Source: an uncultured Anaeroplasma sp.
GTDB lineage: Bacteria > Bacillota_I > Bacilli_A > Acholeplasmatales > Anaeroplasmataceae
Length of the DNA: 64,000 nt
Reading direction: 5' to 3'
Assembly: GCA_945919465.1 (NCBI GenBank)
Contig: CAMEJG010000007.1
Coordinates: 1,099 to 65,098 of the forward strand
A program made the position numbers and the translations under genes. How positions within the stretch are numbered: position 1 is the stretch's first letter; every line of letters begins with the position of its first letter. The notes beneath the pieces are model-generated. The model did not search any database. It worked only from the letters and a program-made list of their open reading frames with translations, and was not told the origin of the DNA. Of this stretch, positions 1-63,297 are shown piece after piece.

Positions 1-416
1 ATTTTACTAAATCCATTTGTAGTAGAAATTACTTGTACTGAATTATTATTTGGAAGTTTATATTTAATATTAGAATTAGTACTTGCACTCTCCCTAACAT
101 TTAAATTGCCTCCATTAGTAGAAACATATTTAGTAGTTAAATTAACCTCTTTAACATAAGGCTTATAGACATAACCAAAGCTATTATCCTTATATTCAAT
201 GTAATACCAATTATTATCCTGACTAATAATTTTAAAATAGCTTCCATTAGGAAGTGAATATTTACTACTTGTGCTAGTAGATTTACCACTTCTAACATTT
301 AAGCTACCTCCATTTGTAGATACAACACCATATTGACTTGCTGCATCGACATTACCACCATTCATCATAAATAATAACGACAGTGGAATTAAACAAATTA
401 CTTTTTTTAATTTCAT
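1..416 (-). CDS. Secreted protein with tandem bacterial SH3 (SH3b/SH3_3) domains; runs off the window edge (partial)
   Basis: Not in the ORF track; translated by hand from the ATG at 416 (SD GAGGTG upstream): MKLKKVICLIPLSLLFMMNGGNVDAASQYGVVSTNGGSLNVRSGKSTSTSSKYSLPNGSYFKIISQDNNWYYIEYKDNSFGYVYKPYVKEVNLTTKYVSTNGGNLNVRESASTNSNIKYKLPNNNSVQVISTTNGFSK. It has a signal peptide and two repeats of VSTNGGxLNVR, typical of SH3b. Confidence 0.8.
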   Translation of the reverse strand, partial: MKLKKVICLIPLSLLFMMNGGNVDAASQYGVVSTNGGSLNVRSGKSTSTSSKYSLPNGSYFKIISQDNNWYYIEYKDNSFGYVYKPYVKEVNLTTKYVSTNGGNLNVRESASTNSNIKYKLPNNNSVQVISTTNGFSK

Positions 417-11909: not shown

Positions 11910-12146
11910 ATGAATAAGAATATTATTGAATTAATTGGAGAAAATGGAAAAAAAATATATTTCAATTTAGAAGCTGAATTAGTGTATGATGGATATGATT
12001 ATCAAATTCTTACTCCAATAGATTCTAATATGGGACTAGATTCAGATGAGGCTTTAGTTTTTAGAATTGAAAATGGAGAATATTATATTGAAGAAAATGA
12101 TGATATTATTAATGAAATAGAAATAATGTATAATAATCAAGAATAG
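11910..12146 (+). CDS. DUF1292 family protein
   Basis: Small acidic protein; IELIGENG...Y.ILTP...EALVFRI...IEND pattern. Confidence 0.75.
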   Translation: MNKNIIELIGENGKKIYFNLEAELVYDGYDYQILTPIDSNMGLDSDEALVFRIENGEYYIEENDDIINEIEIMYNNQE

Positions 12147-12157
12147 GTGTCATAATA
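12128..12157 (+). promoter_or_regulatory. sigmaG-type (forespore) promoter
   Basis: GTATA (12128-12132)-N18-CATAATA (12151-12157); the sigmaG consensus is gnATA-N18-cAtnnTA. The SD follows immediately. Confidence 0.55.
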
Positions 12158-12177: not shown

Positions 12178-12504
12178 ATGACAAATATTAATTGTAAAGC
12201 AGAAAAATGCTGCTATAATTCTTGTGAAAAATGCTTAAAAGGCCAAATTGATGTAGAAGGATTATATGCAAAAAGTAAGGTTGGTACCTTCTGTCAATCT
12301 TATAAAAATATAGAATATAATCCTATTAAAGAAATGGAAATAGCATGTGAAATTACAGATGATAGATTACATAAGGTTTCATGTAGTGCAAATTATTGTG
12401 TATTCTATAATGAGGGTGTTTGTGATAATAAAGAGATCACTATTGGTAAAGAAACCTCATTATATCGCAGTGAAACAGAATGCGATAGCTTTACATTAAA
12501 ATAG
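12178..12504 (+). CDS. DUF1540 protein (two Cys-rich repeats)
   Basis: INCKAEKCCYNSCEKC...TFCQSY and VSCSANYCVFYNEGVC...TECDSF repeats. Confidence 0.85.
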   Translation: MTNINCKAEKCCYNSCEKCLKGQIDVEGLYAKSKVGTFCQSYKNIEYNPIKEMEIACEITDDRLHKVSCSANYCVFYNEGVCDNKEITIGKETSLYRSETECDSFTLK

Positions 12505-17946: not shown

Positions 17947-20900
17947 ATGACTATTAATGAGCTTTTGAATTTAGATAAAACTCAAGCATCTATTCAAAAG
18001 GTAAATATGTTTTTATGCTCAATAGAAAAAAATACATCTGAATATATGAAAGCTTTAACCTTTAAAGCATTAATTCTAGATGAGCTAAATAAAACCTCAG
18101 AAGCCCTAAAATTATTATATGAATATATTCCAGATATAAAAGAAATGACTAATGAAACTGTAGTAATACTTTTAGATGGAATTATTAATATTACACTTAA
18201 TAATGATTTATTTGATCAAACCATAAAATATATTGAACTTAAAAAAAACTTTCTTCCTTTATCAAAAGGTAGCTTATATATTAAGGATAAAATAGATCTT
18301 TATTTGAAAATGAATGATTATAATCAAGCTAAAATAGAATTATTATCTTATTTAGAAGATGATATTTCCAAAGATGAAATGATATTTGCTAAAATAAAAT
18401 TATCAGATATCTACTATAAATTAAAACAATATGATAAATTTGTAGAACTCATACCAGAATTAAAAAATTATTATGAAACTAATTTAGCATTAGAATCATT
18501 ATCTATATTAACTATAAAGGATTTAAAAATATCATTAGATAGAAGAAATTATAATAGAGTAATCAATGAGGGAAATGCATTTATTGAGGCTAATGATATT
18601 AAAATGAAATATATTATAGAAATATCAGCTATGATTATAAAATCCTATGTTGAAATAAATGAACTAAAAAAAGCTAGTATTTTAGAAAGTGATTATAGAG
18701 ATTTTTTATCAAGTGAATATTTATTAGAATCTCTAGATTTTTGTTATGCTTCATTAGAATTATATAAAAAGAATAATTCTTTAGTTTCAATTAAAGAATA
18801 TGAAGCTAAAATAAGTGAATTTGAAGCAATAAAGAATAAAGAAAAGCCTAAATCTAAAAAGAATTTAAAAATAAAAGAAATTACTATTCCGATAGTTGAA
18901 ATACCAAATAATGTTATTGAAGAAATTAATGATAATAATAATTATGGTTATTTATTAAAATCTAAAAAAGAAGAAATAATAAATAAAACAATAACTAATG
19001 AAAAAATAAAGGATATTAATATAAGTAAAACCTATGAATTATTGAAAGATATATTTAATTCATTAAATCAGGTTGATCTAGATATGAAATTTAGAGAAAT
19101 ATTTAGATTAGCTGCAATTTCAATATCAAAAGCTTTTGATATTGAAGAAATATATATTCTATATTTTAATAGAAGTTATTTAGGACTTCACTATAAAAAG
19201 GAAAGAGTTTATGATAAAAAATTAGATATAGATAATCTAAATAATACTATTTCTTATCAAACTATATTACAAAATAATGAATTATTCTTAGATGATTATG
19301 ATAAAGAATACAATATTAATATTGTTACTAATGAAGAATATCCTTCTAATACTTATGCTTATTCAATACCAATTTCTAATTCTATAGAATGCTTTGGTAG
19401 TATTACATATATATCTAATAAGCAATTTATAGAATCTGATGGAGTTTATGAATCATTAAAATTAATATCTATGATGTTAGGTTCTCGTTTGTTATTATTT
19501 ATGAAATCTAATCAAATTAATCTAGAAAATCAAAAGCTATTATTCATTAAGGATAATATGTCATCGGGATTAAAGGAATGTGTTGAGGGTTATATTCATT
19601 TAAATACTCAAGCTCATAATATTTTAGGGGGCTTAGAGGATTTGACTTTGGATGATTATTATAATCATATGGAAATTTCTGATATTACTAATTATAAAAA
19701 TATTATTGAATCTTTATATAATTTAGATTCTAATAAAAGAGAAATAGAATATGATTATAATAAGGATGGAAAGAAAATAAGAATAAAGGAAAGATTTTAT
19801 CCATTATTAATAGAAGGTACAATTCATATATTATCATTAATAGATGATATTTCTAAAGATAATAAGGATAAGAATAAGCTATTAGCTTTAGCTTATACTA
19901 ATCCTATTTCTAAATTAGATACAGAATATAAGCTATTAACAGATTTAGAACAATTATATTCAAAAAGACAATTAAGTCTTACAGTATTATCAGTGGTTGA
20001 TTTTAAAATATATGAAGAGCTATATGGCTATTTATTTACAAAACAGCTTATTTTCGCAATAGGAAAGGCTATAAAAGAAACAATAGCTTCTAATTTTGAT
20101 TTTAGATTATATCATTTAGAGGGAAATCAATATGCTATATTGATGGAAAAAATAAATGATAGAAGATCAATAGATTCTAAATTAAATAATATATTTAATA
20201 GAGTTCATGATGAAATATTAAAAATTAATTCTAGAGCATCTATTTATTTTATGGCTGGAGTATTTAGAATGAACAAAAGTATGAATCTAGAGAAAAGCTC
20301 ATTAATATTAGATTATGCAAAAGAAGCCTTAAATAATTGTAAAAATATAGGTCTATCTCATATAATCGTACACTATGATGGTGAAGAAGCAAGAAGAAAT
20401 TTCAATAAAAAGAATCTAGTTACTCATATTTCTGAATGTATAGACCATGGAAGCTTAATTCTTAATTATCAACAAATAGTTGATATAAAAAATGTTGAGG
20501 TTTATGGATATATTATAAAGCTTGGAATTGACAATTTAGAAATTGAAGATAGTTTATTTAATTCTGTTATTAAAAGAAGAGATTTAGAAAATCAAATGGA
20601 TAAATATTTAATATCTAATGCTTTTAAAGAAGAAAAAATGTTATATGATAAATGTAGAGGATATATAAATATTTTTATTGAAATTAATTTAGATACCTTT
20701 GATTCTACATTTATTAATTTTATTAATACTCAGCTTCAATTTTTTAAAATTGATCCTAAATTTATTACCTTTATCACTAAAAATGCTAGTTCTTTAGTTA
20801 TTCAAAAGCTAAGAGAGATAGGGTTTAAAATAGCTAGCTATGAATTATTAGATGTATTTAGAGAATATACTGATTTTTATTTATATGATTATCATTTATC

Positions 20901-21090
20901 TAAAATAGATAATACTAATGAGATATATGAAATATGTAATAATCATAAAGGCATTTGTATATTAACTGAAATAAATACTAAAGAGGATATTGAATATGCA
21001 AGAGAACAAAATTATTCTATTATAATTGGTAAATATTATAAAAAGAATTTAAGAATGAAAGCTATTATTGATAGTATAAAAAAAGAATAA
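17947..21090 (+). CDS. Multidomain protein: helical-repeat N-terminus, GAF-like, PAS-like, degenerate GGDEF and degenerate EAL
   Basis: TNPISKL...DFKIYEELYG...(LEGNQY in place of GGDEF)...YAKEAL; YQQIVD...VYG (no EAL), IEIN, LGFKIA; GAF-like PISNSIECFGSI. Confidence 0.75.
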   Translation: MTINELLNLDKTQASIQKVNMFLCSIEKNTSEYMKALTFKALILDELNKTSEALKLLYEYIPDIKEMTNETVVILLDGIINITLNNDLFDQTIKYIELKKNFLPLSKGSLYIKDKIDLYLKMNDYNQAKIELLSYLEDDISKDEMIFAKIKLSDIYYKLKQYDKFVELIPELKNYYETNLALESLSILTIKDLKISLDRRNYNRVINEGNAFIEANDIKMKYIIEISAMIIKSYVEINELKKASILESDYRDFLSSEYLLESLDFCYASLELYKKNNSLVSIKEYEAKISEFEAIKNKEKPKSKKNLKIKEITIPIVEIPNNVIEEINDNNNYGYLLKSKKEEIINKTITNEKIKDINISKTYELLKDIFNSLNQVDLDMKFREIFRLAAISISKAFDIEEIYILYFNRSYLGLHYKKERVYDKKLDIDNLNNTISYQTILQNNELFLDDYDKEYNINIVTNEEYPSNTYAYSIPISNSIECFGSITYISNKQFIESDGVYESLKLISMMLGSRLLLFMKSNQINLENQKLLFIKDNMSSGLKECVEGYIHLNTQAHNILGGLEDLTLDDYYNHMEISDITNYKNIIESLYNLDSNKREIEYDYNKDGKKIRIKERFYPLLIEGTIHILSLIDDISKDNKDKNKLLALAYTNPISKLDTEYKLLTDLEQLYSKRQLSLTVLSVVDFKIYEELYGYLFTKQLIFAIGKAIKETIASNFDFRLYHLEGNQYAILMEKINDRRSIDSKLNNIFNRVHDEILKINSRASIYFMAGVFRMNKSMNLEKSSLILDYAKEALNNCKNIGLSHIIVHYDGEEARRNFNKKNLVTHISECIDHGSLILNYQQIVDIKNVEVYGYIIKLGIDNLEIEDSLFNSVIKRRDLENQMDKYLISNAFKEEKMLYDKCRGYINIFIEINLDTFDSTFINFINTQLQFFKIDPKFITFITKNASSLVIQKLREIGFKIASYELLDVFREYTDFYLYDYHLSKIDNTNEIYEICNNHKGICILTEINTKEDIEYAREQNYSIIIGKYYKKNLRMKAIIDSIKKE

Positions 21091-21113
21091 TTTTATATTT
21101 CTAATCATATACT
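21087..21113 (+). promoter_or_regulatory. sigmaE-type (mother-cell) promoter
   Basis: ATA (21087-21089)-N16-CATATACT (21106-21113); the sigmaE consensus is ATA-N16-18-cATAcanT. Confidence 0.5.
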
Positions 21114-21131
21114 TTAATGAAGGTGATTAGG

Positions 21132-21623
21132 ATGAAAAGGAAGCTAAAGCTACCAATATTATTATTAGCTGCAGTAGCAATGATGTCTATTTTCTATATT
21201 AAGGAAGCAAGTAAAGATATAGGAGATCAAGGTGCTTCTGGTGATACTCTAGATTCGACTGTCTTATACCCTGAATTTAGTGAGCTTAGATTGAATCATT
21301 TAGAGGAAGTAAATTTAACTCTTAGTGAATATGAAGCTAAAATCGCCAGTGGAGAGCTTAATGCGAATGAAGTTTCAGAGTGTAGTTTATTAATGGAGGA
21401 CATTAAAAGAAATGTTGATCTAGAAATGAAATTTGAGGATGCATTACTTGAAAACTATGATTATGATGATGTATTAGTTCTTATTGGAGAAGATTATATT
21501 GATGTAAGAATTTATACAGAAGAGGATGTTAGGAAAAATGCAGTTTCGATTATGAAACTTGTTTCAGAGCATTTTGATAGCTATAGAACAATTAAAATAA
21601 CTCCAGTTGCTAAAACTGATTAG
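21132..21623 (+). CDS. SpoIIIAH-like family protein
   Basis: N-terminal TM, then FSELRL...IAS...E.KFEDALLE...DDVLVLIGEDYIDVRI, typical of SpoIIIAH. The start at 21132 is preferred (SD AAGGTGA). Confidence 0.7.
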   Translation: MKRKLKLPILLLAAVAMMSIFYIKEASKDIGDQGASGDTLDSTVLYPEFSELRLNHLEEVNLTLSEYEAKIASGELNANEVSECSLLMEDIKRNVDLEMKFEDALLENYDYDDVLVLIGEDYIDVRIYTEEDVRKNAVSIMKLVSEHFDSYRTIKITPVAKTD

Positions 21624-21659
21624 AAAAAATGCCATTACTGAAATAGTAATGGTTTTTTC
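21624..21659 (+). terminator. Intrinsic terminator
   Basis: CCATTACT/AGTAATGG stem followed by T6. Confidence 0.75.
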
Positions 21660-21913
21660 AATTAATCATTAAGATATGAATGATTATAAATTATTTTTTG
21701 GTATAGAGCCTAAAACTTTTAAAGATTAATGTTCATTATTAGACATAATAATAATAATTTTATATTAAAACATAGTTGCTAAAATATTTCGAAAAAATAT
21801 TTAAATTATTGAAATGTTTACTAAAATACATAATATATCTTTAATTTATATAAATTATTTGCTAGAATTTTATTATAATAAGCGATATTAATTTAATATT
21901 TTTGGGGGTTAAT

Positions 21914-24040
21914 ATGAATAAAATAATTTATGCAAAATTTATTGATGATTTAAAAATTGAATTTAGTGTCAATAATTCTATTAAGTCATATACTATTTAT
22001 TCTGATTCTAAAATAATAGAAACTAATAGTGGAACTAAGGATAAATCCTTATATCTTATTTCCTTAGACAAAGATATCTTTGATGCTAGAAATACCTATA
22101 GTGTGGAGGTTCTATTTTTAGATGATAGAATTGATAAAATTGATATAGATTTATTATCTTTATATAAGACTAGCTTTTTTAATGATAAATATTATTATTC
22201 TGGCAAGGATTTAGGAGTTACATATAATAAAAAATACACTACCTTTAAGGTTTATTCACCTTTAAGTAAAGAAATAATATTAAAGGTTTATTCTAATGGT
22301 ACTCCAAAATTTATTGATGAACTTAAGGGAAGTGATATTCCTTTATTTATTGTACCTATGGATTATAATGATAATGGTATTTTTTCTGCAACTATTCATG
22401 AAAATTTAGAGGGAATGTATTATACCTATACAGTAACAAATTCTAAATATCAAAACATTGAGGTTGTTGACCCTTACGCCAAATCAGCAGGAATTAATGG
22501 CTTAAGAGGAATGATTGTAGATTTTTCTAAAACAAACCCTAAGGGATGGGAAAATGTCGATATAATTCCTTATAGTAAAAATGAAATGGTTGTTTATGAA
22601 ACTCATATTAGTGATATTACATCATCATCTTCATGGAGTAATGATAGTAATAATTTAGTATATAAGCATACCTTTAAAGGGGCAACAATTCCTAATACTA
22701 CATATACACAGGACGGCATTACAGTAAAAACAGGTTTTGATCATATTAAGGAACTAGGAATTAATACCCTACAAATCTTACCATTTTTTGATCATGATAA
22801 TGATGAGACTAATATGATATTTAATTGGGGCTATAATCCCTTAAATTATAATTGCCTTGAAGGTGGTTATTCAACTAATCCTTATGATGGATATGTAAGA
22901 ATTAAAGAATTTAAAGAATTAGTTATGAAATATCATAATGAAAATATTAATATCATTATGGATGTTGTTTATAACCATGTTGATGATGCATTAAAATCTA
23001 ATTTTGAGATATTAGTTCCAGGCTATTATTTTAGACATGATTCATTGGGTAATTTATCTAATGGTTCTGGTTGTGGCAATGAAACTGCATCAGAAATGCC
23101 AATGTTTAGAAAATTTATGATTGATTCTTTAGAATTTTTAGCTAAAGAATATAAGCTATTTGGCTTTAGATTTGATCTAATGGCTGTTCATGATTATGAA
23201 ACAATGAATTTAATTGTAAAAAATCTAAAAGAAAAGGTTAATCCAAATATTGTTGTTTATGGAGAACCATGGGTTGGTGGAGAAAGTAGCTTAGATCCTA
23301 AATTAAGCGCTAGTCAGGCTAATGGCAATAAATATATTGGCTATGGACAATTTAATGATCAATACCGTGATGCCTTAATTATGGGTGGTATGAAGGCTAA
23401 AGAGGAATTAGGCTGGGTTAATAACACTAATAAAACTATTGATAAAGAAATGGATAAAATTAAAAATGGTATTTTAGGCTATACTACAGGTGGAGCTAGT
23501 GATATTCTTGATAATGATAAAACAGTCACTTATGTAACTTGCCATGATAATTATACTTTATACGATAGAATGAAGGCGGCTGGAATAAATGATGATGAGG
23601 TTATTAAGAAAATGGCTATTTTAGCTAATTCAATGGTTTTGACTTCAAAGGGTATTTCATTTATTTTGGCTGGAGAGGAATTCCTTAGAACAAAACATGG
23701 AGAGGATAATTCCTATAATTTGTCATATAAAATAAATGAATTAGATTATTCTTTAAAGGTTAAGAATAATGATATGTTTGAAATATATAAAAAATTAATA
23801 TATTTTAAGAAGAATATTCTTAAAAATAATGAAATTTATGATATTAATATTAGTGAAAATAATAATCAAATAACATATAAATTAAAAAATGAAAATATAG
23901 AATATTTAATTATTCATAATAATTCTTATAATGTTGATAAATTATTAAATTTAGATATATCTTCATATAAAATATATTTAAATACCAGCAACAATAATAA
24001 TACAAATAATCCATGGCAAACATTAATATTATATAAATAA
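21914..24040 (+). CDS. pulA: Type I pullulanase (GH13)
   Basis: VDPYAKS, YETHISD, LQILPF, YNWGY-like FNWGYNP, MDVVYNH, GFRFDLMA, YGEPW, CHDN and AGEEFLRTK. ATG at 21914 follows a GGGGG SD. Confidence 0.93.
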   Translation: MNKIIYAKFIDDLKIEFSVNNSIKSYTIYSDSKIIETNSGTKDKSLYLISLDKDIFDARNTYSVEVLFLDDRIDKIDIDLLSLYKTSFFNDKYYYSGKDLGVTYNKKYTTFKVYSPLSKEIILKVYSNGTPKFIDELKGSDIPLFIVPMDYNDNGIFSATIHENLEGMYYTYTVTNSKYQNIEVVDPYAKSAGINGLRGMIVDFSKTNPKGWENVDIIPYSKNEMVVYETHISDITSSSSWSNDSNNLVYKHTFKGATIPNTTYTQDGITVKTGFDHIKELGINTLQILPFFDHDNDETNMIFNWGYNPLNYNCLEGGYSTNPYDGYVRIKEFKELVMKYHNENINIIMDVVYNHVDDALKSNFEILVPGYYFRHDSLGNLSNGSGCGNETASEMPMFRKFMIDSLEFLAKEYKLFGFRFDLMAVHDYETMNLIVKNLKEKVNPNIVVYGEPWVGGESSLDPKLSASQANGNKYIGYGQFNDQYRDALIMGGMKAKEELGWVNNTNKTIDKEMDKIKNGILGYTTGGASDILDNDKTVTYVTCHDNYTLYDRMKAAGINDDEVIKKMAILANSMVLTSKGISFILAGEEFLRTKHGEDNSYNLSYKINELDYSLKVKNNDMFEIYKKLIYFKKNILKNNEIYDINISENNNQITYKLKNENIEYLIIHNNSYNVDKLLNLDISSYKIYLNTSNNNNTNNPWQTLILYK

Positions 24041-24047
24041 ATTCAAT

Positions 24048-24078
24048 GGTACTAGAGTTTATACTTTAGTACTTTTTT
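24048..24078 (+). terminator. Intrinsic terminator of pulA
   Basis: GGTACTAGAGT/ACTTTAGTACT followed by a T-run. Confidence 0.7.
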
Positions 24079-24105
24079 ATAAATAAATTAGATATATGAG
24101 ACTAA

Positions 24106-24133
24106 AGTTTCGAATTTTTTCGAAATAGTTTCG
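24106..24133. promoter_or_regulatory. Candidate operator upstream of malQ
   Basis: TTTCGAA-TTTT-TTCGAAA inverted repeat plus a third TTTCG. The same TTTCGAAA core lies upstream of pulA (21787-21794). Confidence 0.4.
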
Positions 24134-24255
24134 GAAAATGATTATCGTTTGTGAAGATTTTACTAAACTAGAATCAAATGATTGAAAGATTGATTTTTTT
24201 TGATAAAATTTAATTGTATGAATCGATTTTTAATTAAAAATATTGGAGGTTTAAA

Positions 24256-25755
24256 ATGACTTCAGAAAGAAAAGCAGGTGTTTTATTACACATTACTAGT
24301 CTTCCATCAAAATATGGTGTAGGAACTCTTGGTATAGAAGCATATAATTTTATAGATTGGTTACATGATGCAAAACAAAGTATTTGGCAGGTATTACCAC
24401 TTACTCCAACAAATTATGGAGATTCTCCATATCAAAGTGTCTCATCTACTGCTCTAAATTATTATCTTATTGATTTTGATATCTTAAATCAAAAGGGATT
24501 ATTATTAAAGAAGGATTATAATAATGTTAAATTTAGTTATAATAAAAATAGGGTAGATTATAGTATTTTATTTAATGAAAAGATAAAGCTATTAAAAAAG
24601 GCTTTTACTAATTTTGATACTAGCTGTAAAAAATTTAAAAAATTTGTTAATGATGGTGAATATAAATATTTTGCAGTATTTATGACAATAAAAGCTATGC
24701 ATAATTATTTATCATTTGATAAATGGGATATAAATTATCAAACTTATAGTGAGGAATTAGTAAATAATATAATAAATGAGCATAATAATGATTATTTATT
24801 TTGGGTTTGGACTCAATATGAGTTTTTAGATGAATGGAATAAGCTTCATAGCTATGCTAAGAAAAGAGGAATTGAAATAATGGGAGATATGCCATTATAT
24901 ATTGCTTATGACTCAGTTGAGGTTTGGAAGAATCCTGAAATGTTTATTCTAGATGAAGCTAAGAAGCCTAAATTAGTTGCAGGATGCCCACCTGATGCAT
25001 TCACTAGTGATGGTCAATTATGGGGAAATCCTGTATATGATTGGAAATATATGAAGGATAATAATTATTCTTGGTGGAATGAAAGATTAAATAGTGCTTT
25101 TAAATTATATGATATTGTTAGAATTGATCATTTTAGAGGCTTTGATAGATTTTATGCGATTGATAGTCATGAAACTACAGCTAGAAATGGTAAATGGCTA
25201 GATGGACCAAAAATTGATTTATTTAAGGATAAACTAAATTTAAGAATTGTAGCTGAAGATTTAGGTGTAATTGATGATGGTGTTATTAAGCTAATGAAGG
25301 ATACTGGATATCCTGGAATGAAAATAATGGAATTTGCGTTTGATGGAAATAAAAATAATGAGCATAAGCCATCAAATACAACCGAAAATTATATTATTTA
25401 TACAGGTACTCATGATAATGAGCCATTATATTCATATATTAAAAATTTATCTAAAGAAGCCTTTAAAAGATTCAAAGATGATGTAAAGGATGAAGCATCT
25501 AAGCTTAATGTAGAAATATCTAGCTATAGCTATAAAAATCTTGTTGATATTATAGTAGAGCTTGGTTATGCTTCAAAAGCTAAATATGCTATTTTCCCTA
25601 TTCAAGATTTACTAGCATTAGATAATGATACTAGAATGAATTTGCCTTCTACAGTATCAACTAATAACTGGAGCTATAGAGTAGCTAAAAAAGATATTAA
25701 TGATGAATTGATGTTAAGATTGAAAAAATATTCTAAAAAATATAGGAGAGGTTAA
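24256..25755 (+). CDS. malQ: 4-alpha-glucanotransferase (GH77)
   Basis: GVLLHITSLP, WQVLPL, SPYQS, GDMPLY, GCPPDAF...GQLWGNP, RIDHFRGF, AEDLG and YTGTHDN. Confidence 0.97.
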   Translation: MTSERKAGVLLHITSLPSKYGVGTLGIEAYNFIDWLHDAKQSIWQVLPLTPTNYGDSPYQSVSSTALNYYLIDFDILNQKGLLLKKDYNNVKFSYNKNRVDYSILFNEKIKLLKKAFTNFDTSCKKFKKFVNDGEYKYFAVFMTIKAMHNYLSFDKWDINYQTYSEELVNNIINEHNNDYLFWVWTQYEFLDEWNKLHSYAKKRGIEIMGDMPLYIAYDSVEVWKNPEMFILDEAKKPKLVAGCPPDAFTSDGQLWGNPVYDWKYMKDNNYSWWNERLNSAFKLYDIVRIDHFRGFDRFYAIDSHETTARNGKWLDGPKIDLFKDKLNLRIVAEDLGVIDDGVIKLMKDTGYPGMKIMEFAFDGNKNNEHKPSNTTENYIIYTGTHDNEPLYSYIKNLSKEAFKRFKDDVKDEASKLNVEISSYSYKNLVDIIVELGYASKAKYAIFPIQDLLALDNDTRMNLPSTVSTNNWSYRVAKKDINDELMLRLKKYSKKYRRG

Positions 25756-25756
25756 T

Positions 25757-28045
25757 ATGAAATACTCTGAACAAATTGAATTAATATTAAATTCATATTA
25801 TGGACATAGTACAAAGGATGCATCCGTTAAGGAACTATATAATGCAGTATCAAGAATTGTAATGAATGAAGCATTACCAAAATGGGATGCAACAAAAAAG
25901 AGTGAAGGAAAAAGATGTGGTTATTTATCTTTAGAATTTCTAATTGGTAGATTAGTATATTCTAATATGCTTAATTTAGGAATATTAGAAGATATGAAAA
26001 AAACTCTTAAAAGCTTAGGAAGAGATATTAATGAATTTGAAGAAATTGAAGATGATGCTTTAGGAAATGGTGGTTTAGGTAGACTTGCTGCATGTTTCTT
26101 AGATAGTGCAGCTACTCATGATATAAAGCTTGATGGTTATGGCTTAAGATACAAATATGGACTATTTAAACAATCATTTGTAGATGGTTATCAGCATGAA
26201 GAGGCAGATGATTGGCAAAAATGGGGAGATCCATTTAGCATAAGAAAAGAAGAAGATAAGGTATTAGTTCATTTTAGTGATTTTGATGTTTTGGCTATAC
26301 CTTATGATTATCCTGTTATTGGTTATAATAGTAATACTATTAACACATTAAGATTATGGCAAGCAGAAAATGCTAATGATTTTAATTTTACTGATTTTGA
26401 TAATATGAATGGTAAAACAAATGCAGTAGCTGATTATCAGGCTAATGAAATTACTTATGTTTTATATCCAAATGATAATTCCTTAGAAGGTAAATATTTA
26501 AGACTACGTCAAGAATATTTTATGGTAAGTGCTTCTTTACAGGATTTTATTAATAAATATAAAAAGAAAGGCTTATCATTTAATGAAATAAGTAATTATC
26601 AAATATGGCAATTAAATGATACTCATCCTACTTTAGCTATTCCTGAATTTATTAGATTATTAAATAATGAAGGCTTAAGCTATAATGAGGGTTTAGCTAT
26701 CGCAAGAAAATGCTTTAACTTTACTAATCATACTATTATGGGTGAAGCATTAGAAAAATGGCCAGTATTTATGCTTAATGAATTAATCCCAGATGTATAT
26801 AATGTAATTCAATTTTTACAAACAAAAATTGAAGAAGAATTACATAATCCTAATTTATTTATTATCCATGATAATGTAGTACATATGGCTAATCTAGCTA
26901 TATTTGTTTCTTCTCATGTAAATGGTGTTGCTAAAATTCATACAAATATTTTAAAAAATGATACCTTTAAAATGTGGAATGAGGTATACCCTAATAAGAT
27001 TTTAAATGTTACAAATGGTATTACTCCTCGTAGATGGGTAGCATTAAATAATCCTAAGCTTGCAAAACTAATTTCAAATAAAATTGGTGATGAGTGGATT
27101 AAGGATTTAAGTAAGCTTGAAGAATTAAAGCCTTATATTGATGAAAAATTTGTTAATGATTTTATCAAGATAAAAAATGATAATAAAAAAATATTATCTA
27201 AATATATTAAAGAACATGATAATGTAGATATTGATAGCTCCTTTATTTTTGATATTCAAATTAAAAGATTACATGAATATAAGCGTCAGCTATTAAATGC
27301 TTTATCAATTTTATATATTTATAATGAATTAAAGACAGGAAATTTAAAAGATTTTAAGCCTCAAGCATTTATTTTTGGAGCTAAAAGTGCTCCAGGCTAT
27401 TATATCGCAAAGGCAATAATTAAATTCATTAATGAAATTGCTAATTTAGTAAATAATGATCCTCAAGTTAATAATAAGCTTAAGGTTATATTTGTTGAAA
27501 ATTATAATGTATCTTATGCCGAAAGATTAGTATGTGCTGCTGATATTTCAGAACAAATTTCAATGGCAGGTATGGAAGCTTCTGGTACTGGTAATATGAA
27601 GTTTATGGCTAATGGTACTCCAACATTAGGTACTTTAGATGGAGCTAATGTTGAAATTTGTGATATGGCAGGAATTGATAATAACTATATCTTTGGATTA
27701 ACTGTTGATGAGGTTAATGAGCTTAAAAAGAATTATGATCCTAATTGGTATTTAGATAATAATTTAAAGCTTAAGGCAGTAGTTAATACCTTAATTGATG
27801 GAACCTTTAATGATGAAAAGGGCTATTTAAAAGCTTTATATAATAGCTTAACTACAGGTGATAGAAAGGATTATTATTTAGTATTTGCTGATTTTGATTC
27901 TTATATTAATGCTAAGCTTAAGGTTAATAGTGAATTTGGAACAAAAGAGTATTATCATAAATGCATCCAAAATATGTTAAATTGTTCTAAATTTTCATCT
28001 GATCGTTCTATTAATGATTATAATGAATTAATTTGGAAATTATAA
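25757..28045 (+). CDS. glgP: Glycogen/starch/maltodextrin phosphorylase
   Basis: LGNGGLGRLAACF, LRQEYF, QLNDTHP, TNHT, NVTNGITPRRW, IKRLHEYKRQ and EASGTGNMK. Confidence 0.97.
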   Translation: MKYSEQIELILNSYYGHSTKDASVKELYNAVSRIVMNEALPKWDATKKSEGKRCGYLSLEFLIGRLVYSNMLNLGILEDMKKTLKSLGRDINEFEEIEDDALGNGGLGRLAACFLDSAATHDIKLDGYGLRYKYGLFKQSFVDGYQHEEADDWQKWGDPFSIRKEEDKVLVHFSDFDVLAIPYDYPVIGYNSNTINTLRLWQAENANDFNFTDFDNMNGKTNAVADYQANEITYVLYPNDNSLEGKYLRLRQEYFMVSASLQDFINKYKKKGLSFNEISNYQIWQLNDTHPTLAIPEFIRLLNNEGLSYNEGLAIARKCFNFTNHTIMGEALEKWPVFMLNELIPDVYNVIQFLQTKIEEELHNPNLFIIHDNVVHMANLAIFVSSHVNGVAKIHTNILKNDTFKMWNEVYPNKILNVTNGITPRRWVALNNPKLAKLISNKIGDEWIKDLSKLEELKPYIDEKFVNDFIKIKNDNKKILSKYIKEHDNVDIDSSFIFDIQIKRLHEYKRQLLNALSILYIYNELKTGNLKDFKPQAFIFGAKSAPGYYIAKAIIKFINEIANLVNNDPQVNNKLKVIFVENYNVSYAERLVCAADISEQISMAGMEASGTGNMKFMANGTPTLGTLDGANVEICDMAGIDNNYIFGLTVDEVNELKKNYDPNWYLDNNLKLKAVVNTLIDGTFNDEKGYLKALYNSLTTGDRKDYYLVFADFDSYINAKLKVNSEFGTKEYYHKCIQNMLNCSKFSSDRSINDYNELIWKL

Positions 28046-28072
28046 TTTTATTTTAAATCTATTTTCTCCTAA

Positions 28073-28104
28073 GATAGCTCTCACTTTTAGTGGGAGCTAT
28101 CATT
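28073..28104 (+). terminator. Hairpin after glgP (likely terminator)
   Basis: GATAGCTCTCACT/AGTGGGAGCTATC stem with a short T tail. Confidence 0.6.
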
Positions 28105-28119
28105 TAATGAGGTATATTT

Positions 28120-28803
28120 ATGGAAAAGAATTTATTATTTGATTTATATGGTACATTAATTAATATTCATACTAACGAAGATAGTTTATTATTTTGGGAT
28201 AGTGTAAAGGAAGAATTATTTATAGATTCTAAATTATCTTGTGAAGAAATAAAAAATAAATATTTACACTATTGTATGGAATTATCAAAAGAAAAAGAAG
28301 AAATAGAAATCTTAGATGTATTTAAGCTTTTAGGCTTTGAAAATAAAAATGAAGCATTAATGGCAGCTAAAAGATTTAGAGAATTATCAACAACATTTAT
28401 TAAACTATATTCTAATGTCAAGGAAACTTTAATAGAATTAAAAGCTCTTGGATTTAAATTATATGTATTAAGTAATGCACAAGCCTCATTCACTGTACCA
28501 GAATTAAAAAAACTTGGTATTTATGATTTATTTGATGGAATAGCTATTTCATCTGATTATGGAGTTAAAAAGCCTAATTTAGAATTTTATAAAAGAACTA
28601 TTTTAGATTTTAATATTTCTAGTGGAATTATGATTGGTAATGATTATGAATGTGATGTTTTACCTGCAAAAGAAATTGGATTAGGCTCTATTTTTATTAG
28701 ATCAAATATCACCCCTTATGAACCAAATTATTGGAAACGTAGTGATTTAGATTATTTTGATAAAAAACAATTGATTGATAAAATATTAAACTTTTATAAA
28801 TAA
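28120..28803 (+). CDS. HAD family hydrolase
   Basis: FDLYGTL, LSNAQ, KKP and IGND motifs. Confidence 0.9.
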   Translation: MEKNLLFDLYGTLINIHTNEDSLLFWDSVKEELFIDSKLSCEEIKNKYLHYCMELSKEKEEIEILDVFKLLGFENKNEALMAAKRFRELSTTFIKLYSNVKETLIELKALGFKLYVLSNAQASFTVPELKKLGIYDLFDGIAISSDYGVKKPNLEFYKRTILDFNISSGIMIGNDYECDVLPAKEIGLGSIFIRSNITPYEPNYWKRSDLDYFDKKQLIDKILNFYK

Positions 28804-28910
28804 TTATATAAAATTTTATTTTTATTATATATATATTGAAAAGAAATTAAATTAGATGCTATAATTATCATAAATAAAATTACATTTTTCTTTTTAGGAG
28901 GTACTCTCTT

Positions 28911-29912
28911 ATGGATAATCAAAAAATCAGAATAAAGGATATCGCAGAAGCTCTACACTTATCTGTATCTACTGTTTCTAAGGCTTTAAATGGAGCCTTT
29001 GATATCTCAAGAGAAACTAAAGAAGAAGTATTAGAATATGCTAAAAAAAATGGATATAAGGCAAGAGATGAAAGATTAGTAGTTAAAAAGGTAAGAAGAT
29101 TATGTGTTTTATATGATAATATTGATTATTCTACTCAATGTAATGTGATAATTCCGGTATCAATGTCTTTTGCTAATTTTGCAAGAAATAATAATTTTGA
29201 AATTGTACAAACTCCTATAAGCTCTATGGGAATGTCTTATGATGAATTTATGGCTAAAAATGATTATGTAGGAGCTTTTATAGCAGGATTAAATTATAAA
29301 TCATCTATTATTCATGAAATTCAGAATACTACATATCCAACAGTATTATTTGATAATAATATTGAAGGAAATAAGATTTCTACAATATCTATTGAAAATG
29401 TAAATTCTATTGTTAAAATAGTAGATTTATTATATTCTTTAGGTCATAGAAAAATAGGCTTTATTCATGGGGATAAACATTCATTTATTTCAAATGAACG
29501 CTTTGCAGGATATATTATTGGTCAAAATATTCATGATTTAGAATATAATCCTAATTATGTATATTATGGTGAATATAGTGAACAATCAGGCTATGATGCT
29601 GGTGAATTTTTTGCAGGCTCTGATGTTACTGCTGTAATTTGTTCATCTGATTTAATTGCGATTGGATTAATGAGAGGCTTAGAAGAAAAAGGAATTAGTG
29701 TACCTGATGATATCTCTGTAACAGGTTTTGATGATTTAGATGTTGCGAAATATGTAAATCCATCATTAACTACTGTAAAGCAGAATATTGATAAAATAGG
29801 GGAAAAGGCTTTTAATTTATTACTTAATATGCTAACAAATAGATCGGGTCAAAGAATTGTTGTTACAAGTGATATTATTGTAAGAAATTCTACGGCTAAG
29901 GTTAAAGAATAA
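28911..29912 (+). CDS. LacI family transcriptional regulator
   Basis: IKDIAEALHLSVSTVSKALN HTH; RKIGFI, SDLIAIG, VPDDISVTGFDD and P.LTTV. Confidence 0.95.
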   Translation: MDNQKIRIKDIAEALHLSVSTVSKALNGAFDISRETKEEVLEYAKKNGYKARDERLVVKKVRRLCVLYDNIDYSTQCNVIIPVSMSFANFARNNNFEIVQTPISSMGMSYDEFMAKNDYVGAFIAGLNYKSSIIHEIQNTTYPTVLFDNNIEGNKISTISIENVNSIVKIVDLLYSLGHRKIGFIHGDKHSFISNERFAGYIIGQNIHDLEYNPNYVYYGEYSEQSGYDAGEFFAGSDVTAVICSSDLIAIGLMRGLEEKGISVPDDISVTGFDDLDVAKYVNPSLTTVKQNIDKIGEKAFNLLLNMLTNRSGQRIVVTSDIIVRNSTAKVKE

Positions 29913-43989: not shown

Positions 43990-45213
43990 ATGCTTAGAAG
44001 GAAGTTATATGATTATGATTTCATGGGTGGAATCGTTGCGGTATATTTAGGGAATTCTAGTAATGTAGAAGAAGCATTAATTAAATATTTTGATAGTAAA
44101 GAATCTAGAGGCATATGGGGATTTTATGGGAATGATTTATCTGAATTAAAAAAGAAAATAGATTCCCCATTAGCTGATTTAATTTATTATATTCGTAGTG
44201 GTAGTACTAAAAAAGAATTATTAGATAAAATATCTAATTTATCTAATGAAGAAATATTAGCATTTAATTATTTCTATGACTCTAATTCTTTTATGTATTC
44301 TTTAAAAAAATCAGGGTTTAATCCAATAACAGGTTTAATTTCAGGAGCCTATTATGGAATTGAACAGGTTTTAGTTTCTAAGGTAATGGTAAATATCAGT
44401 AAAGAAAATAGAATTAGAGTTGGTGATTTTAAAGAGATATGTCTTAATAGTTATAAAGTGAATGAGGCATTGAATTATTATCCTTTAGATAAGAAACCTG
44501 ATGGCTATACTATTCATTTATTGGACATTAATGATGAATTTATGACATCTAATTTAGAAGAGAAGCCTTATTTGGGTCAATTAATTACCTTTGGTAAAAT
44601 TATTAATGCTTATATTTATGATAAAGAATTGTCACTGGAAGCATTAGATAAAATAGGTGTTAGATTAAAATGTTTAATTAAAAATTTAAATATTAAAGAA
44701 ATTAATATTATTAATCAATTTTATTATAAGGAAATTGATTTTATGGTAAAAAAATATTTAAATGATGTTATCATTAATTGTTATATTCCTTTATCTAATA
44801 TGGAAAGAAAGGCTTGTAAATTAATGTATCAATATCATTTAAATCAAATTGATAAATCAGGAGCTCCTTATTATATGCATCCTTTTTTTGTAGGAATTCA
44901 TTGTAACAACACTAAATCAAGAATAGTAGGTTTTTTACATGACACCTTAGAGGATACTACTATTACTCTTGATGAAATAAAACAATTTGGTGATGAAATT
45001 ACTGAAGCTTTATTATTACTTACTCATAATGATGATACTCCATATTTAGATTATGTAAAAAAAGCAGCTACTAATAAAATAGCTAAAGAGGTTAAGCTTG
45101 CTGATTTATTACATAATACTAATTTAGGTAGGCAACTTCATCCAAATGATAATATTTTTGAAAGATTAGTAAGAAAATATGATCAAGCTATAAATTATTT
45201 AAAGAATAAATAA
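43990..45213 (+). CDS. Fusion of a degenerate ADP-ribosylglycohydrolase-like domain, a degenerate Macro-like domain and a RelA/SpoT-type HD (small alarmone hydrolase-like) domain
   Basis: C-terminal DKSGAPYYMHP...LHDTLEDT...VKLADLLHN is clear. ILAFNYF...GLISGAYYG resembles ARH, and IRVGD...NIKEINI...VKKYL...INCY resembles Macro. Confidence 0.65.
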   Translation: MLRRKLYDYDFMGGIVAVYLGNSSNVEEALIKYFDSKESRGIWGFYGNDLSELKKKIDSPLADLIYYIRSGSTKKELLDKISNLSNEEILAFNYFYDSNSFMYSLKKSGFNPITGLISGAYYGIEQVLVSKVMVNISKENRIRVGDFKEICLNSYKVNEALNYYPLDKKPDGYTIHLLDINDEFMTSNLEEKPYLGQLITFGKIINAYIYDKELSLEALDKIGVRLKCLIKNLNIKEINIINQFYYKEIDFMVKKYLNDVIINCYIPLSNMERKACKLMYQYHLNQIDKSGAPYYMHPFFVGIHCNNTKSRIVGFLHDTLEDTTITLDEIKQFGDEITEALLLLTHNDDTPYLDYVKKAATNKIAKEVKLADLLHNTNLGRQLHPNDNIFERLVRKYDQAINYLKNK

Positions 45214-46710: not shown

Positions 46711-47595
46711 ATGAATAAAATAAAGAAAGGCATATTAGGTTTATTAATTGGAATTGGTATAATTATACCTGGTGTAAGTGGGGCAGCTATTTTAATAATG
46801 TTTGGTTATTATGATAAAATAATTAATGCTATATCTAATATAAATAAAGAATTTAAGAAAAGTATTGTTTTCTTATTTCCATTTTTTATTTATATTATAA
46901 TTGGAATAATTCTTGGATTTTTTGTAATAAAAAAGCTATTAGTTATTATTCCCTTTTCTATTTCATTATTATTTTCTGGTTTATTACTTGGAAGTATTCT
47001 ATCAATAAAAAATGATAAGATAATATTTGATTTTAAAAATAACTTATTATTGACATTAGGATTTATTATTCCTTCATTTTTAGGATTAATATTTTTAAAT
47101 ACTAATATCAAAATAGATATTTATTCTTATAGTATTATTAATCTAATAATATATTGTATAATAGGTATAGCAATTAGTATAACTCAATTTATACCTGGCA
47201 CCTCAGCTACAGCATTATTAATGTCAATAGGGATATTTAATGAATTATTAGAAACAATTAGCATTAATTATTGGAAAAATAATTGTGAAATATTTATTAC
47301 TTATTTAGCTATATTGTTGGGTTTTATATTTGGAGTAATTGTTATTTCTAAAGTGTTAAATAAAATAATTAATAAATATCAAAATAGAATAAATTATTTA
47401 TTTATGGGCTTAACATTTTCATCAATATTTTCTATAATATTTAATAAAGAAAATCTATTAATTTATCAATCTTGGAAGAATAATATGAATTATTTTGATT
47501 TAGTATTAGGAGTAATTCTATTTATTTTTGGATTATTTATAAGTATTTTAATATATTTTATTAATAAAAGACATAATAAAATTGTAAAGGAGTAA
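46711..47595 (+). CDS. DUF368 membrane protein
   Basis: IIPGVSGAAI...GYYD and IPGTSATALL..IG repeats. Confidence 0.85.
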   Translation: MNKIKKGILGLLIGIGIIIPGVSGAAILIMFGYYDKIINAISNINKEFKKSIVFLFPFFIYIIIGIILGFFVIKKLLVIIPFSISLLFSGLLLGSILSIKNDKIIFDFKNNLLLTLGFIIPSFLGLIFLNTNIKIDIYSYSIINLIIYCIIGIAISITQFIPGTSATALLMSIGIFNELLETISINYWKNNCEIFITYLAILLGFIFGVIVISKVLNKIINKYQNRINYLFMGLTFSSIFSIIFNKENLLIYQSWKNNMNYFDLVLGVILFIFGLFISILIYFINKRHNKIVKE

Positions 47596-62944: not shown

Positions 62945-63297
62945 ATGATTGAATCAATATTATATAATGGTGGAATATATTGCAGATTATCCTTAGATGA
63001 TGGAAGTGCAGGAGAATTTGGAAGTATTCAAATACAAAAAATGATGCTGGAAAAATATTGTAAAGATAATCGCTATACTGTAAAAGAAGTATATATTGAT
63101 GATGGGTATTCAGGTCTTAATTTTTATAGGCCAGCTTTTAAACAATTATTATGTGATATAGAAGCTGGTAAAATCAATATTGTAATAACTTAAGACTTAT
63201 CAAGATTAGGTAGAGATTACCTACAAACAGGATATTACACTGAACAATATTTTCCTCTTCATCATGTAAGATTATCGCAATTAATGATGGTGTAGAT
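62945..63297 (+). pseudogene. Large serine recombinase (TnpX/TndX-like), N-terminal remnant
   Basis: GIYCRLS.DD, YIDDGYSG.NF.RP, then ITK-to-IT* nonsense at 63191. The frame continues DLSRLGRDYLQTGYYTEQYFP, a 1-nt deletion near 63272 precedes IAINDGVD, and the gene is then truncated. Confidence 0.9.

What the first reader, a model, noticed from the sequence alone, without database searches (positions are those of the whole stretch)
21087..21659. Orphan spoIIIAH-like gene with a sigmaE-type promoter
Seen: a SpoIIIAH-like protein without spoIIIAA-AG, preceded by ATA-N16-CATATACT and followed by a terminator. Established: spoIIIA is sigmaE-transcribed, and SpoIIIAH forms the SpoIIQ-AH channel and zipper during engulfment. 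Inference: together with the sigmaG site at 12128, this points to a retained and possibly minimised sporulation programme (AH kept, rest of the operon lost or relocated) in a lineage usually regarded as non-sporulating.
Basis: partly seen in the sequence, partly recalled or inferred. Interest (0 to 1): 0.65.

Follow-up and report, generated by a model that had tools for sequence, protein, structure and literature searches.

The report
Stand-alone spoIIIAH gene in Anaeroplasmataceae
A gut bacterium from a family classically counted among the wall-less, non-sporulating mollicutes carries a lone, actively transcribed copy of the sporulation gene spoIIIAH behind a conserved mother-cell (sigma-E type) promoter; this fits a reduced sporulation programme already suspected for the family from published genome surveys.

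Summary
The gene is at 21132-21623 (163 aa; the true start is M6 of the listed ORF). It encodes a short-linker SpoIIIAH: Pfam hit just above threshold, profile-profile match to classical SpoIIIAH 99.5%, and the predicted fold is closest to the B. subtilis SpoIIIAH crystal structures. It has no spoIIIAA-AG beside it and ends in a real terminator.

The ATA-N16-CATATACT motif is not above chance in the window alone. It is kept at the same spacing in most orthologous loci. Its strict form lies upstream of 11 orthologues and of none of about 290 other ORFs. spoIVA genes of related MAGs have the same architecture.

The organism is an Anaeroplasmataceae MAG species from pig and bovine gut. Eight gut metatranscriptomes hold RNA contigs that cover only this gene.

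In a divergent relative the gene still sits next to nusB-xseAB-recN-spoIVB, its ancestral position, so the rest of the operon was deleted. Two sibling MAGs hold both this gene and spoIVA; one also has a SigK-family sigma factor.

The window's own genome could not be inventoried. Orphan spoIIIAH in Erysipelotrichaceae and sporulation genes in Anaeroplasmataceae are already published, so this is a new member of a known kind.

The parts
21087..21089 (+). -35 element ATA of a sigma-E-type promoter; it overlaps the stop codon (21088-21090) of the upstream GGDEF/EAL gene
   Evidence: ATA at exactly 16 nt upstream of the CATATA box in 13 of 16 distinct orthologous upstream regions. This element was not used to anchor the alignment. 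It is also present in L021 and L022. Sigma-E promoters have ATA at -35 and sigma-K promoters have AC (Saujet 2013, PMC3789822).
21106..21113 (+). -10 element CATATACT (mother-cell sigma type)
   Evidence: C 15/16, A 16/16, T 16/16, A 16/16, T 16/16, A 16/16, C 11/16, T 14/16 across orthologues of 38-98% protein identity. The strict pattern ATA-N16-CATAnA[ACT]T lies upstream of 11 AH genes and 0 other ORFs among 306. Housekeeping promoters in the same window are classical TTGACA/TGnTATAAT.
21120..21126 (+). ribosome-binding site AAGGTGA
   Evidence: Read from the sequence. It lies 5 nt upstream of ATG 21132. GGAG-type sites sit at the same place in the orthologues.
21132..21623 (+). spoIIIAH orthologue, 163 aa: N-terminal membrane anchor, short linker, two long helices and a beta-beta-alpha-beta ring-building-motif domain
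   Evidence: dN/dS 0.08-0.33 between orthologues. RNA contigs in 8 of 8 metatranscriptomes.
21631..21659 (+). intrinsic terminator (10-pair stem, 3-nt loop, T-run)
   Evidence: The longest RNA contig ends at 21630, at the foot of the stem.
12128..12157 (+). forespore-type (sigma-F/G) promoter-like site GTATA-N18-CATAATA
   Evidence: G[T/A]ATA-N17/18-CA(A/T)A[A/C]TA-like sequence kept upstream of the orthologous DUF1540 gene in 6 further loci. Assignment to sigma-F/G rests on consensus knowledge, not on a test.
12178..12504 (+). DUF1540 small cysteine-rich protein gene, candidate forespore-expressed gene
   Evidence: Pfam PF07561 45.4 bits. Syntenic in relatives. One RNA contig in one of four runs.

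Best explanation
The gene is the true, positionally derived orthologue of spoIIIAH in an uncultured Anaeroplasmataceae species from pig and bovine gut. The seven upstream genes of the spoIIIA operon were deleted in an ancestor, as already described for Erysipelotrichaceae. AH was left as a monocistronic unit with its own sigma-E-type promoter and terminator. The protein is a type-II membrane protein: N-terminal anchor, an 18-residue linker about 35-40 residues shorter than in classical SpoIIIAH, then a helical hairpin and a ring-building-motif domain. Inferred mechanism: during a reduced endospore programme, mother-cell RNA polymerase carrying a sigma-E-like factor transcribes the gene. AH inserts in the engulfing mother-cell membrane, oligomerises into a ring, and binds a forespore LytM protein (SpoIIQ) across the intermembrane space. 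It would act as the zipper and scaffold for engulfment without the AA-AG secretion-like machinery. Shown here: orthology, fold, orphan state, promoter conservation and specificity, purifying selection, transcription in vivo as a separate RNA, and co-occurrence with spoIVA, spoIVB, spoVIF and a SigK-family sigma factor in relatives. Inferred only: which sigma factor reads the promoter, the SpoIIQ partner, ring formation, and actual spore formation.
For: Orthology and fold: Pfam above threshold; PDB sequence search hits only SpoIIIAH; hhalign 99.5% over the full length including the membrane anchor; Foldseek top hits are SpoIIIAH in the SpoIIQ-SpoIIIAH complexes, then EscJ, PrgK and FliF. An exhaustive HMM search shows a continuum from 155-180 aa short forms to 185-245 aa classical forms.

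Positional orthology: L021 has GGDEF/EAL-AH-nusB-xseA-xseB-dxs-recN...spoIVB, against Oceanobacillus spoIIIAA..AH-accBC-asp23-nusB-folD-xseAB...recN.

Promoter: [G/T][T/C]ATA-N16-CATATAcT is kept at fixed spacing in 16 distinct loci plus L021 and L022. It stays in place when an extra gene is inserted upstream (L004). The strict pattern is found upstream of AH only, 11 against 0 of about 290 other ORFs. The same ATA-N16-CATA[T/G]A[A/T]T lies upstream of spoIVA, a canonical sigma-E gene, in three genomes. spoVIF has an AC-N17-CATAAATT (sigma-K type) site in L021. Housekeeping promoters in the window are of the sigma-A type and different.

Expression: RNA contigs confined to 21090-21630 in 8 of 8 metatranscriptomes from at least 5 studies, with the flanking genes at depth 0.

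Selection: dN/dS 0.08-0.33.

Lineage context: spoIVA is common in Anaeroplasma, Anaeroplasmataceae and Acholeplasmatales MAGs. The same MAG holds AH and spoIVA twice: JBJEFS01 (L017 + L023) and JAFTQR01 (L012 + L025). A SigK-family sigma factor is in JAFTQR01 (263 bits against a cut-off of 252). SpoIVB and SpoVIF are in L021, and SpoVIF also in L018 and L022.

Literature: PMC10868615 and bioRxiv 10.1101/2022.02.25.481979.
Against: No sporulation regulator (spo0A, sigE, sigF, sigG), spoIIQ or spoIVA could be shown for the window's own genome. The 64 kb holds no other recognisable sporulation gene apart from the DUF1540 candidate.

The mRNA is as abundant (contig depth 8-14) as alcohol dehydrogenase and htpG of the same organism in the same runs. 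That is more than expected for a gene expressed only in mother cells of a sporulating minority, though contig depth is a poor measure.

One RNA contig (X25) starts at 21090, 16 nt upstream of the -10 box. Some transcription may therefore start further upstream or read through.

The Pfam score is marginal and NCBIfam has no hit.

No member of this family has been seen to form spores.
Confidence: 0.65

Rival explanations
1. Repurposed envelope protein. The AH orthologue survives because it has taken on a vegetative role, for example as a ring-forming or tethering membrane protein in a thin-walled cell. It would be expressed in most cells, with the sigma-E-like factor (or another factor) no longer restricted to sporulation.
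For: RNA contig depth equals or exceeds that of Fe-alcohol dehydrogenase, htpG and the abundant unknown gene at 52272-53891 in the same four runs, and RNA is present in 8 of 8 runs. No other sporulation gene is in the 64 kb window. In the window's lineage, and in L018 and L022, spoIVA is no longer at the gpsA-spoVIF position where L021 has it.
Against: The promoter architecture is the one shared with spoIVA and differs from the housekeeping promoters of the same genome. Sibling MAGs with the same gene arrangement keep spoIVA and a SigK-family sigma factor. Faecal samples may hold many sporulating cells. Contig depth is a poor measure of expression.
Confidence: 0.13
2. Ordinary sigma-A promoter. 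The conserved box is read as TATACT (-10) by the housekeeping sigma factor, and the gene is simply a constitutive small membrane protein gene.
For: TATACT matches TATAAT at 5 of 6 positions. The mRNA is abundant. One contig starts upstream of the box.
Against: There is no TTGACA-like -35 and no TGn extension, whereas htpG, ADH and PTAC in the same window have them. The sigma-70 scan does not list the site. The CA dinucleotide before TATA is nearly invariant, and ATA lies at exactly N16. These are hallmarks of sigma-E/K promoters, not of sigma-A. spoIVA has the same architecture.
Confidence: 0.12
3. Decaying relic. The gene is a non-functional remnant of a lost sporulation programme.
For: The rest of the operon is gone. 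The family's cultured type genus is non-sporulating.
Against: Intact ORF in more than 110 sequence clusters. dN/dS 0.08-0.33. Conserved promoter, RBS and terminator. Transcribed in vivo.
Confidence: 0.03

Closest known systems
SpoIIIAH of Bacillus subtilis (PDB 3UZ0, 3TUF; Pfam PF12685)
   Same: N-terminal membrane anchor with the L-S-(I/V)-(F/Y)-Y motif. Shared F-x-x-x-R, A-S...S-A-x-E, E..LE..I...Y-D-V-L-V and F-G...V-x-V motifs. Same helical hairpin and beta-beta-alpha-beta ring-building-motif fold. Sigma-E-type promoter.
   Different: 163 aa rather than about 190-245 aa, because the linker is about 35-40 residues shorter. Monocistronic, not the eighth gene of the spoIIIA operon. About 22-24% sequence identity.
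Orphan spoIIIAH (with spoIIQ) of spore-forming Erysipelotrichaceae (Clostridium innocuum, Erysipelatoclostridium ramosum; Galperin et al. 2022)
   Same: Seven of the nine SpoIIQ-SpoIIIA complex genes are lost and AH is retained, in a lineage next to the mollicute-like orders. This is the same evolutionary state proposed here.
   Different: Those species are cultured and proven to form spores. Here the organism is an uncultured Anaeroplasmataceae, and the spoIIQ partner and spore formation are untested.
Ring-building-motif proteins of secretion systems and flagella (EscJ, PrgK, FliF)
   Same: The C-terminal domain fold matches (Foldseek E 8e-4 to 7e-2), as is known for SpoIIIAH.
   Different: A single RBM domain. 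Far weaker match than to SpoIIIAH. No secretion-system genes in the neighbourhood.

Membership tests
SpoIIIAH (PF12685) | Sequence profile match above the curated threshold | tested here: met
   Pfam 32.1 bits against GA 30.6, which is marginal. hhalign against classical SpoIIIAH 99.5%, E 1.8e-22, 155 columns. The PDB profile search hits only SpoIIIAH. NCBIfam has no model hit.
SpoIIIAH (PF12685) | Single N-terminal membrane anchor with the soluble domain outside the cytoplasm | tested here: met
   KRKLK followed by a hydrophobic helix at 11-33 in the AF2 model. The anchor aligns with the SpoIIIAH anchor. Topology is inferred from the positive-inside rule, not measured.
SpoIIIAH (PF12685) | C-terminal EscJ/PrgK-like ring-building-motif fold preceded by two long helices | tested here: met
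   AF2 model with pLDDT about 90 over residues 50-168. Foldseek 3tuf_A target TM-score 0.89, rmsd 2.1 A. This is a predicted structure, not a solved one.
SpoIIIAH (PF12685) | Last gene of the spoIIIAA-AH operon | tested here: not met
   No spoIIIAA-AG in 64 kb, nor beside any of more than 20 orthologous loci. In L021 the downstream half of the ancestral neighbourhood (nusB-xseAB-...-recN-spoIVB) is kept. The orphan state is already known for Erysipelotrichaceae, so it does not exclude membership.
SpoIIIAH (PF12685) | Transcription by sigma-E RNA polymerase in the mother cell | tested here: inconclusive
   A conserved, gene-specific ATA-N16-CATATAcT motif is shared with spoIVA, and the RNA is a separate unit. 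No start-site mapping and no sigma-factor dependence test. One contig starts upstream of the box.
SpoIIIAH (PF12685) | Binding to the LytM domain of SpoIIQ and ring oligomerisation | not tested
   No SpoIIQ candidate could be retrieved for this genome with the capped searches.
Endospore-forming Bacillota (sporulation programme) | spo0A and the sigma-F/E/G/K cascade | not testable with these tools
A SigK-family sigma factor is present in sibling MAG JAFTQR01. Promoter types of three classes are conserved. Field et al. 2024 report spo0A in most Anaeroplasmataceae genomes.
Endospore-forming Bacillota (sporulation programme) | spoIVA (hallmark morphogenetic ATPase) | tested here: inconclusive
   Present in cis in L021. 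Present in two MAGs that also carry the orphan AH. Widespread in MAGs named Anaeroplasma or Anaeroplasmataceae. Not shown for the window's own species.
Endospore-forming Bacillota (sporulation programme) | Peptidoglycan machinery (needed for cortex) | tested here: inconclusive
   FtsW/RodA/SpoVE gene 6 kb from AH in L002. SH3b-repeat secreted protein and an undecaprenyl-phosphate translocase-like gene in the window. The literature reports 40-60% of family genomes with mur genes.

The most novel reading that the evidence does not exclude
In the window's genus the SpoIIIAH orthologue and its sigma-E-type promoter are active in a large share of cells in the gut, and the protein works outside classical endospore formation. 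For example it could act as a membrane ring or tether in a thin-walled, reduced-genome bacterium, or in a much simplified form of intracellular offspring or resting-cell formation that needs only the Q-AH pair. That would be a first case of a core engulfment protein co-opted after loss of the rest of the A-Q machinery.
Probability: 0.13. Interest if true: 0.75.

Novelty: new member of a known kind. Interest (0 to 1): 0.45.

Why it matters
Anaeroplasmataceae are classified with the wall-less mollicutes and treated as non-sporulating. A live, selected and transcribed spoIIIAH with a conserved mother-cell promoter, next to spoIVA, spoIVB, spoVIF and a SigK-family sigma factor in relatives, suggests that members of this common gut family of livestock and humans may make spores. 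That bears on how they transmit between hosts, on how they survive oxygen and disinfectants, and on how to culture them.

For sporulation biology, the family adds a second and even more reduced lineage in which only the AH part (presumably with Q) of the A-Q 'feeding tube' remains. AA-AG are essential in B. subtilis and C. difficile, so such lineages are natural experiments on the minimal function of the complex. The unusually short AH linker may report a narrower intermembrane space.

Tried and rejected
- Motif statistics in the window alone: not above chance. The single-sequence promoter call by itself was not evidence.
- NCBIfam scan of the AH protein: no family hit.
- Supplementary gene tables of Field et al. 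2024: the stored file is truncated and has no per-gene data for Anaeroplasmataceae.
- Literature search for the consensus string CATACAHT: nothing found. The sigma-E/K description from Saujet 2013 was used instead.
- Pfam scans of 58 non-redundant flanking ORFs from relatives, concatenated: only SpoVIF turned up. A YlbJ-like ORF scores far below its cut-off, and I do not count it as evidence.
- Organism names for long-contig family members: none held.
- Linking a spoIVA cluster to the window's own MAG (JBGVLG01): not achievable within the look-up caps.
- Evidence for Anaeroplasma in resistant (spore) fractions: only an indirect mention, not used.
- Small intergenic ORFs of the window: no small sporulation proteins.
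- Considered and rejected: that the gene is co-transcribed with the upstream GGDEF/EAL gene. That gene has no RNA contigs, and the promoter stays with AH when a gene is inserted between them.
Full report
**What is there.** The finding spans 21087-21659. The listed ORF runs 21117-21623 (168 aa). An alignment of 26 homologues shows that all others start at the sixth residue. The real start is therefore ATG 21132 (163 aa), preceded by AAGGTGA at 21120-21126. The upstream gene (17947-21090) encodes a 1047-aa degenerate GGDEF/EAL protein and stops 41 nt before this start. A 10-pair hairpin with a T-run follows at 21631-21659. Terminator-like sites are far above shuffled expectation in this stretch (2 against 0.1).

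**Is it SpoIIIAH?**
- Pfam PF12685 matches residues 54-161 at 32.1 bits, just above the gathering score of 30.6. NCBIfam has no hit. Alone this would be weak.
- A profile of the family hits only B. subtilis SpoIIIAH among all PDB sequences (3UZ0/3TUF, E 5e-7).
- A profile-profile comparison with 15 classical 185-245 aa SpoIIIAH proteins gives 99.5% probability, E 1.8e-22, over 155 columns. It covers the membrane anchor (L-S-I/V-F/Y-Y motif) and every conserved block of the soluble domain. The only large difference is a gap of about 35-40 residues in the linker.
- The AlphaFold model has pLDDT about 90 over residues 50-168. It shows a membrane helix, a short disordered linker, two long helices and a beta-beta-alpha-beta unit.
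- Its best structural matches are SpoIIIAH chains from the SpoIIQ-SpoIIIAH complexes (target TM-score 0.79-0.89, rmsd 2.1-2.4 A), followed by EscJ, PrgK and FliF ring-building motifs.
- An exhaustive HMM search finds 182 representatives, with a continuum from short to classical forms.
- Orthologues are under purifying selection (dN/dS 0.08-0.33).
- I conclude that it is a short-linker SpoIIIAH.

**Whose genome?** The closest public sequence is contig JBGVLG010000146 of 'Anaeroplasma sp. fecal_MAG_287' (98% protein identity). All 15 genome hits are MAGs labelled Anaeroplasma, Anaeroplasmataceae, Acholeplasmatales, 'Erysipelotrichaceae' or Candidatus Pelethenecus. The DNA is found in pig and bovine gut metagenomes. 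The window has 25% G+C. The other genes of the window are housekeeping, carbohydrate and transport genes. No other sporulation family appears in 64 kb.

**Orphan state and how it arose.**
- In every related locus the gene follows rdgB-ysnB-like genes and the large GGDEF/EAL gene, never spoIIIAG.
- The most divergent family member (L021, GCA_031549865.1) is informative. There the gene is directly followed by nusB, xseA, xseB, dxs and recN, and a few genes later by spoIVB. Nine kilobases upstream lie gpsA-spoVIF-spoIVA-hbs.
- AH in L021 therefore still occupies its ancestral position, with AA-AG (and accBC) gone. Later rearrangements in the window's lineage separated it from nusB.

**The promoter.**
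- In the window alone, ATA-N16-CATAYAHT occurs twice against 3.2 expected, and CATATACT three times against 4.8.
- Comparison changes this. In 16 distinct orthologous upstream regions (38-98% protein identity) the -10 box is nearly invariant: C 15, A 16, T 16, A 16, T 16, A 16, C 11, T 14 of 16.
- Exactly 16 nt upstream, [G/T][T/C]ATA is kept (A 13, T 15, A 15 of 16), while the spacer varies. L021 and L022 show the same.
- The -35 element was not used to anchor the alignment, so it is independent evidence.
- In L004 an acetyltransferase gene has been inserted between the GGDEF/EAL gene and AH, and the promoter stayed with AH.
- As a control, I searched the 90 nt upstream of 306 ORFs in the window and all loci for the strict pattern ATA-N16-CATAnA[ACT]T. 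There were 11 hits, all AH genes, and none elsewhere.
- spoIVA, a textbook sigma-E gene, has ATA-N16-CATAGATT or CATATAAT in three related genomes. spoVIF in L021 has AC-N17-CATAAATT.
- According to Saujet et al., sigma-E and sigma-K share the -10 box and differ by ATA against AC at -35, with 16-18 nt spacing.
- Highly expressed housekeeping genes in the same window (htpG, alcohol dehydrogenase, PTAC) have classical TTGACA/TGnTATAAT promoters, unlike the AH promoter.
- The site at 12128 (GTATA-N18-CATAATA), upstream of a DUF1540 gene, is likewise kept in six further loci and fits the forespore sigma-F/G type. That assignment rests on my knowledge of the consensus.

**Expression.**
- Eight gut metatranscriptome runs from at least five studies each contain an assembled RNA contig, about 99-100% identical to the window (0-4 differences in roughly 290-500 nt), that covers only this gene.
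- Contig bounds are 21090, 21133, 21133, 21138, 21184, 21206, 21208 and 21236 at the 5' side, and at most 21630 at the 3' side. The flanking GGDEF/EAL gene has depth 0.
- The gene is thus a separate transcription unit ending at the terminator.
- Its contig depth (8.7, 7.9, 13.8, 8.2) equals or exceeds that of alcohol dehydrogenase, htpG and an abundant unknown gene of the same organism in the same four runs.
- Two cautions apply. Contig depth is a poor measure of expression. One contig begins 16 nt upstream of the -10 box, so an additional upstream start or read-through cannot be excluded.
- The high level is the main observation that the sporulation-only model does not predict. It feeds the rival 'repurposed' reading.

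**Is there a sporulation programme?**
- I could not inventory the window's own genome, because the collection scans are capped.
- A search with the L021 SpoIVA returns many full-length SpoIVA proteins (49-63% identity among the 120 listed). Most of those with a source name are labelled Anaeroplasma sp., Anaeroplasmataceae bacterium or Acholeplasmatales bacterium.
- Two MAGs hold both the orphan AH and spoIVA on different contigs: LOHA11_bin.045 (JBJEFS01; L017 and L023) and RGIG4062 (JAFTQR01; L012 and L025).
- RGIG4062 also has a 214-aa sigma factor that passes the SigK subfamily cut-off (263 against 252 bits; the SigE model scores 199).
- L021 has SpoIVB (284 bits, cut-off 305) and SpoVIF. 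SpoVIF is also in L018 and L022.
- A SEDS (FtsW/RodA/SpoVE) gene lies near AH in L002. The window encodes a secreted SH3b-repeat protein.
- Field, Bowerman and Hugenholtz (2024) noted that a majority of Anaeroplasmataceae genomes contain sporulation genes including spo0A and that 40-60% contain mur genes. They suggested that some members may form spores.

**Verdict.** Both the observation and the interpretation stand. The finding extends a published pattern rather than opening a new one.
- the positional proof of orthology;
- the conserved, gene-specific sigma-E-type promoter shared with spoIVA;
- the short linker;
- direct evidence that the gene is transcribed as its own unit in animal guts.

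Still open are the sigma factor that reads the promoter, the SpoIIQ partner, the absence of AA-AG elsewhere in this genome, and whether spores are made.

Noticed in passing
window 56639-61999 (+), 62026-62760 (+), 62945-63193 (+): A 1786-aa RHS-repeat protein (RHS-associated core domain, 62 bits) is followed by an unknown 244-aa ORF that could be its immunity gene. After that comes a truncated serine-recombinase N-terminus. Together they look like a polymorphic-toxin locus, possibly on a mobile element.
   Followed up: partly
window 52272-53891 (+): Unknown 539-aa protein with an N-terminal CxxC...CxxC zinc ribbon, a Pro/Lys-rich linker and a long coiled coil. No Pfam or NCBIfam hit. RNA contigs in 4 of 4 metatranscriptomes at depth about 2-11, among the most expressed genes of the window. 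A similar N-terminal sequence turns up in a relative's locus.
   Followed up: partly
window 17947-21090 (+): A 1047-aa protein with weak GGDEF and EAL matches lies directly upstream of the AH gene in nearly every related locus, one of them with a gene inserted between. It has no RNA contigs in 8 runs. The reason for this tight synteny is unexplained.
   Followed up: partly
window 21090-21594 (RNA contig of run X25): One of eight RNA contigs starts at 21090, upstream of the -10 box at 21106-21113. It could reflect read-through, a second start site near a TATAAA at 21076-21081, or DNA carry-over.
   Followed up: no
L021 649-2473 and 18122-19120; L018 4882-5136; L022 4482-4724: In relatives, spoVIF follows gpsA. 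In L021 spoVIF is followed by spoIVA-hbs as in Bacillus. In L018 and L022 spoIVA is missing from that position. spoVIF in L021 has a sigma-K-type AC-N17-CATAAATT site.
   Followed up: partly
L025 14305-14949 (-): A SigK-family sigma factor of 214 aa starts at about model position 20. It may therefore lack a pro-sequence, as in C. difficile, unless the start codon is miscalled.
   Followed up: no
window 47599-48567 (+) and 46711-47595 (+): A choloylglycine (bile-salt) hydrolase gene sits next to an undecaprenyl-phosphate translocase-like gene. The first fits a gut lifestyle and the second fits the presence of an envelope polymer.
   Followed up: no
window 1-416 (-): N-terminal part of a secreted protein with SH3b (cell-wall-binding) repeats. 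It hints that this 'Anaeroplasma' has a wall.
   Followed up: no
window 43990-45213 (+): A 407-aa protein with no Pfam hit. Residues 277-342 match the N-terminal end of RelA/SpoT family models (E 4e-10).
   Followed up: no
window 21902-29912: Pullulanase, 4-alpha-glucanotransferase, glycogen/maltodextrin phosphorylase, a HAD hydrolase and a LacI-type regulator form an alpha-glucan utilisation cluster directly downstream of the AH gene.
   Followed up: no
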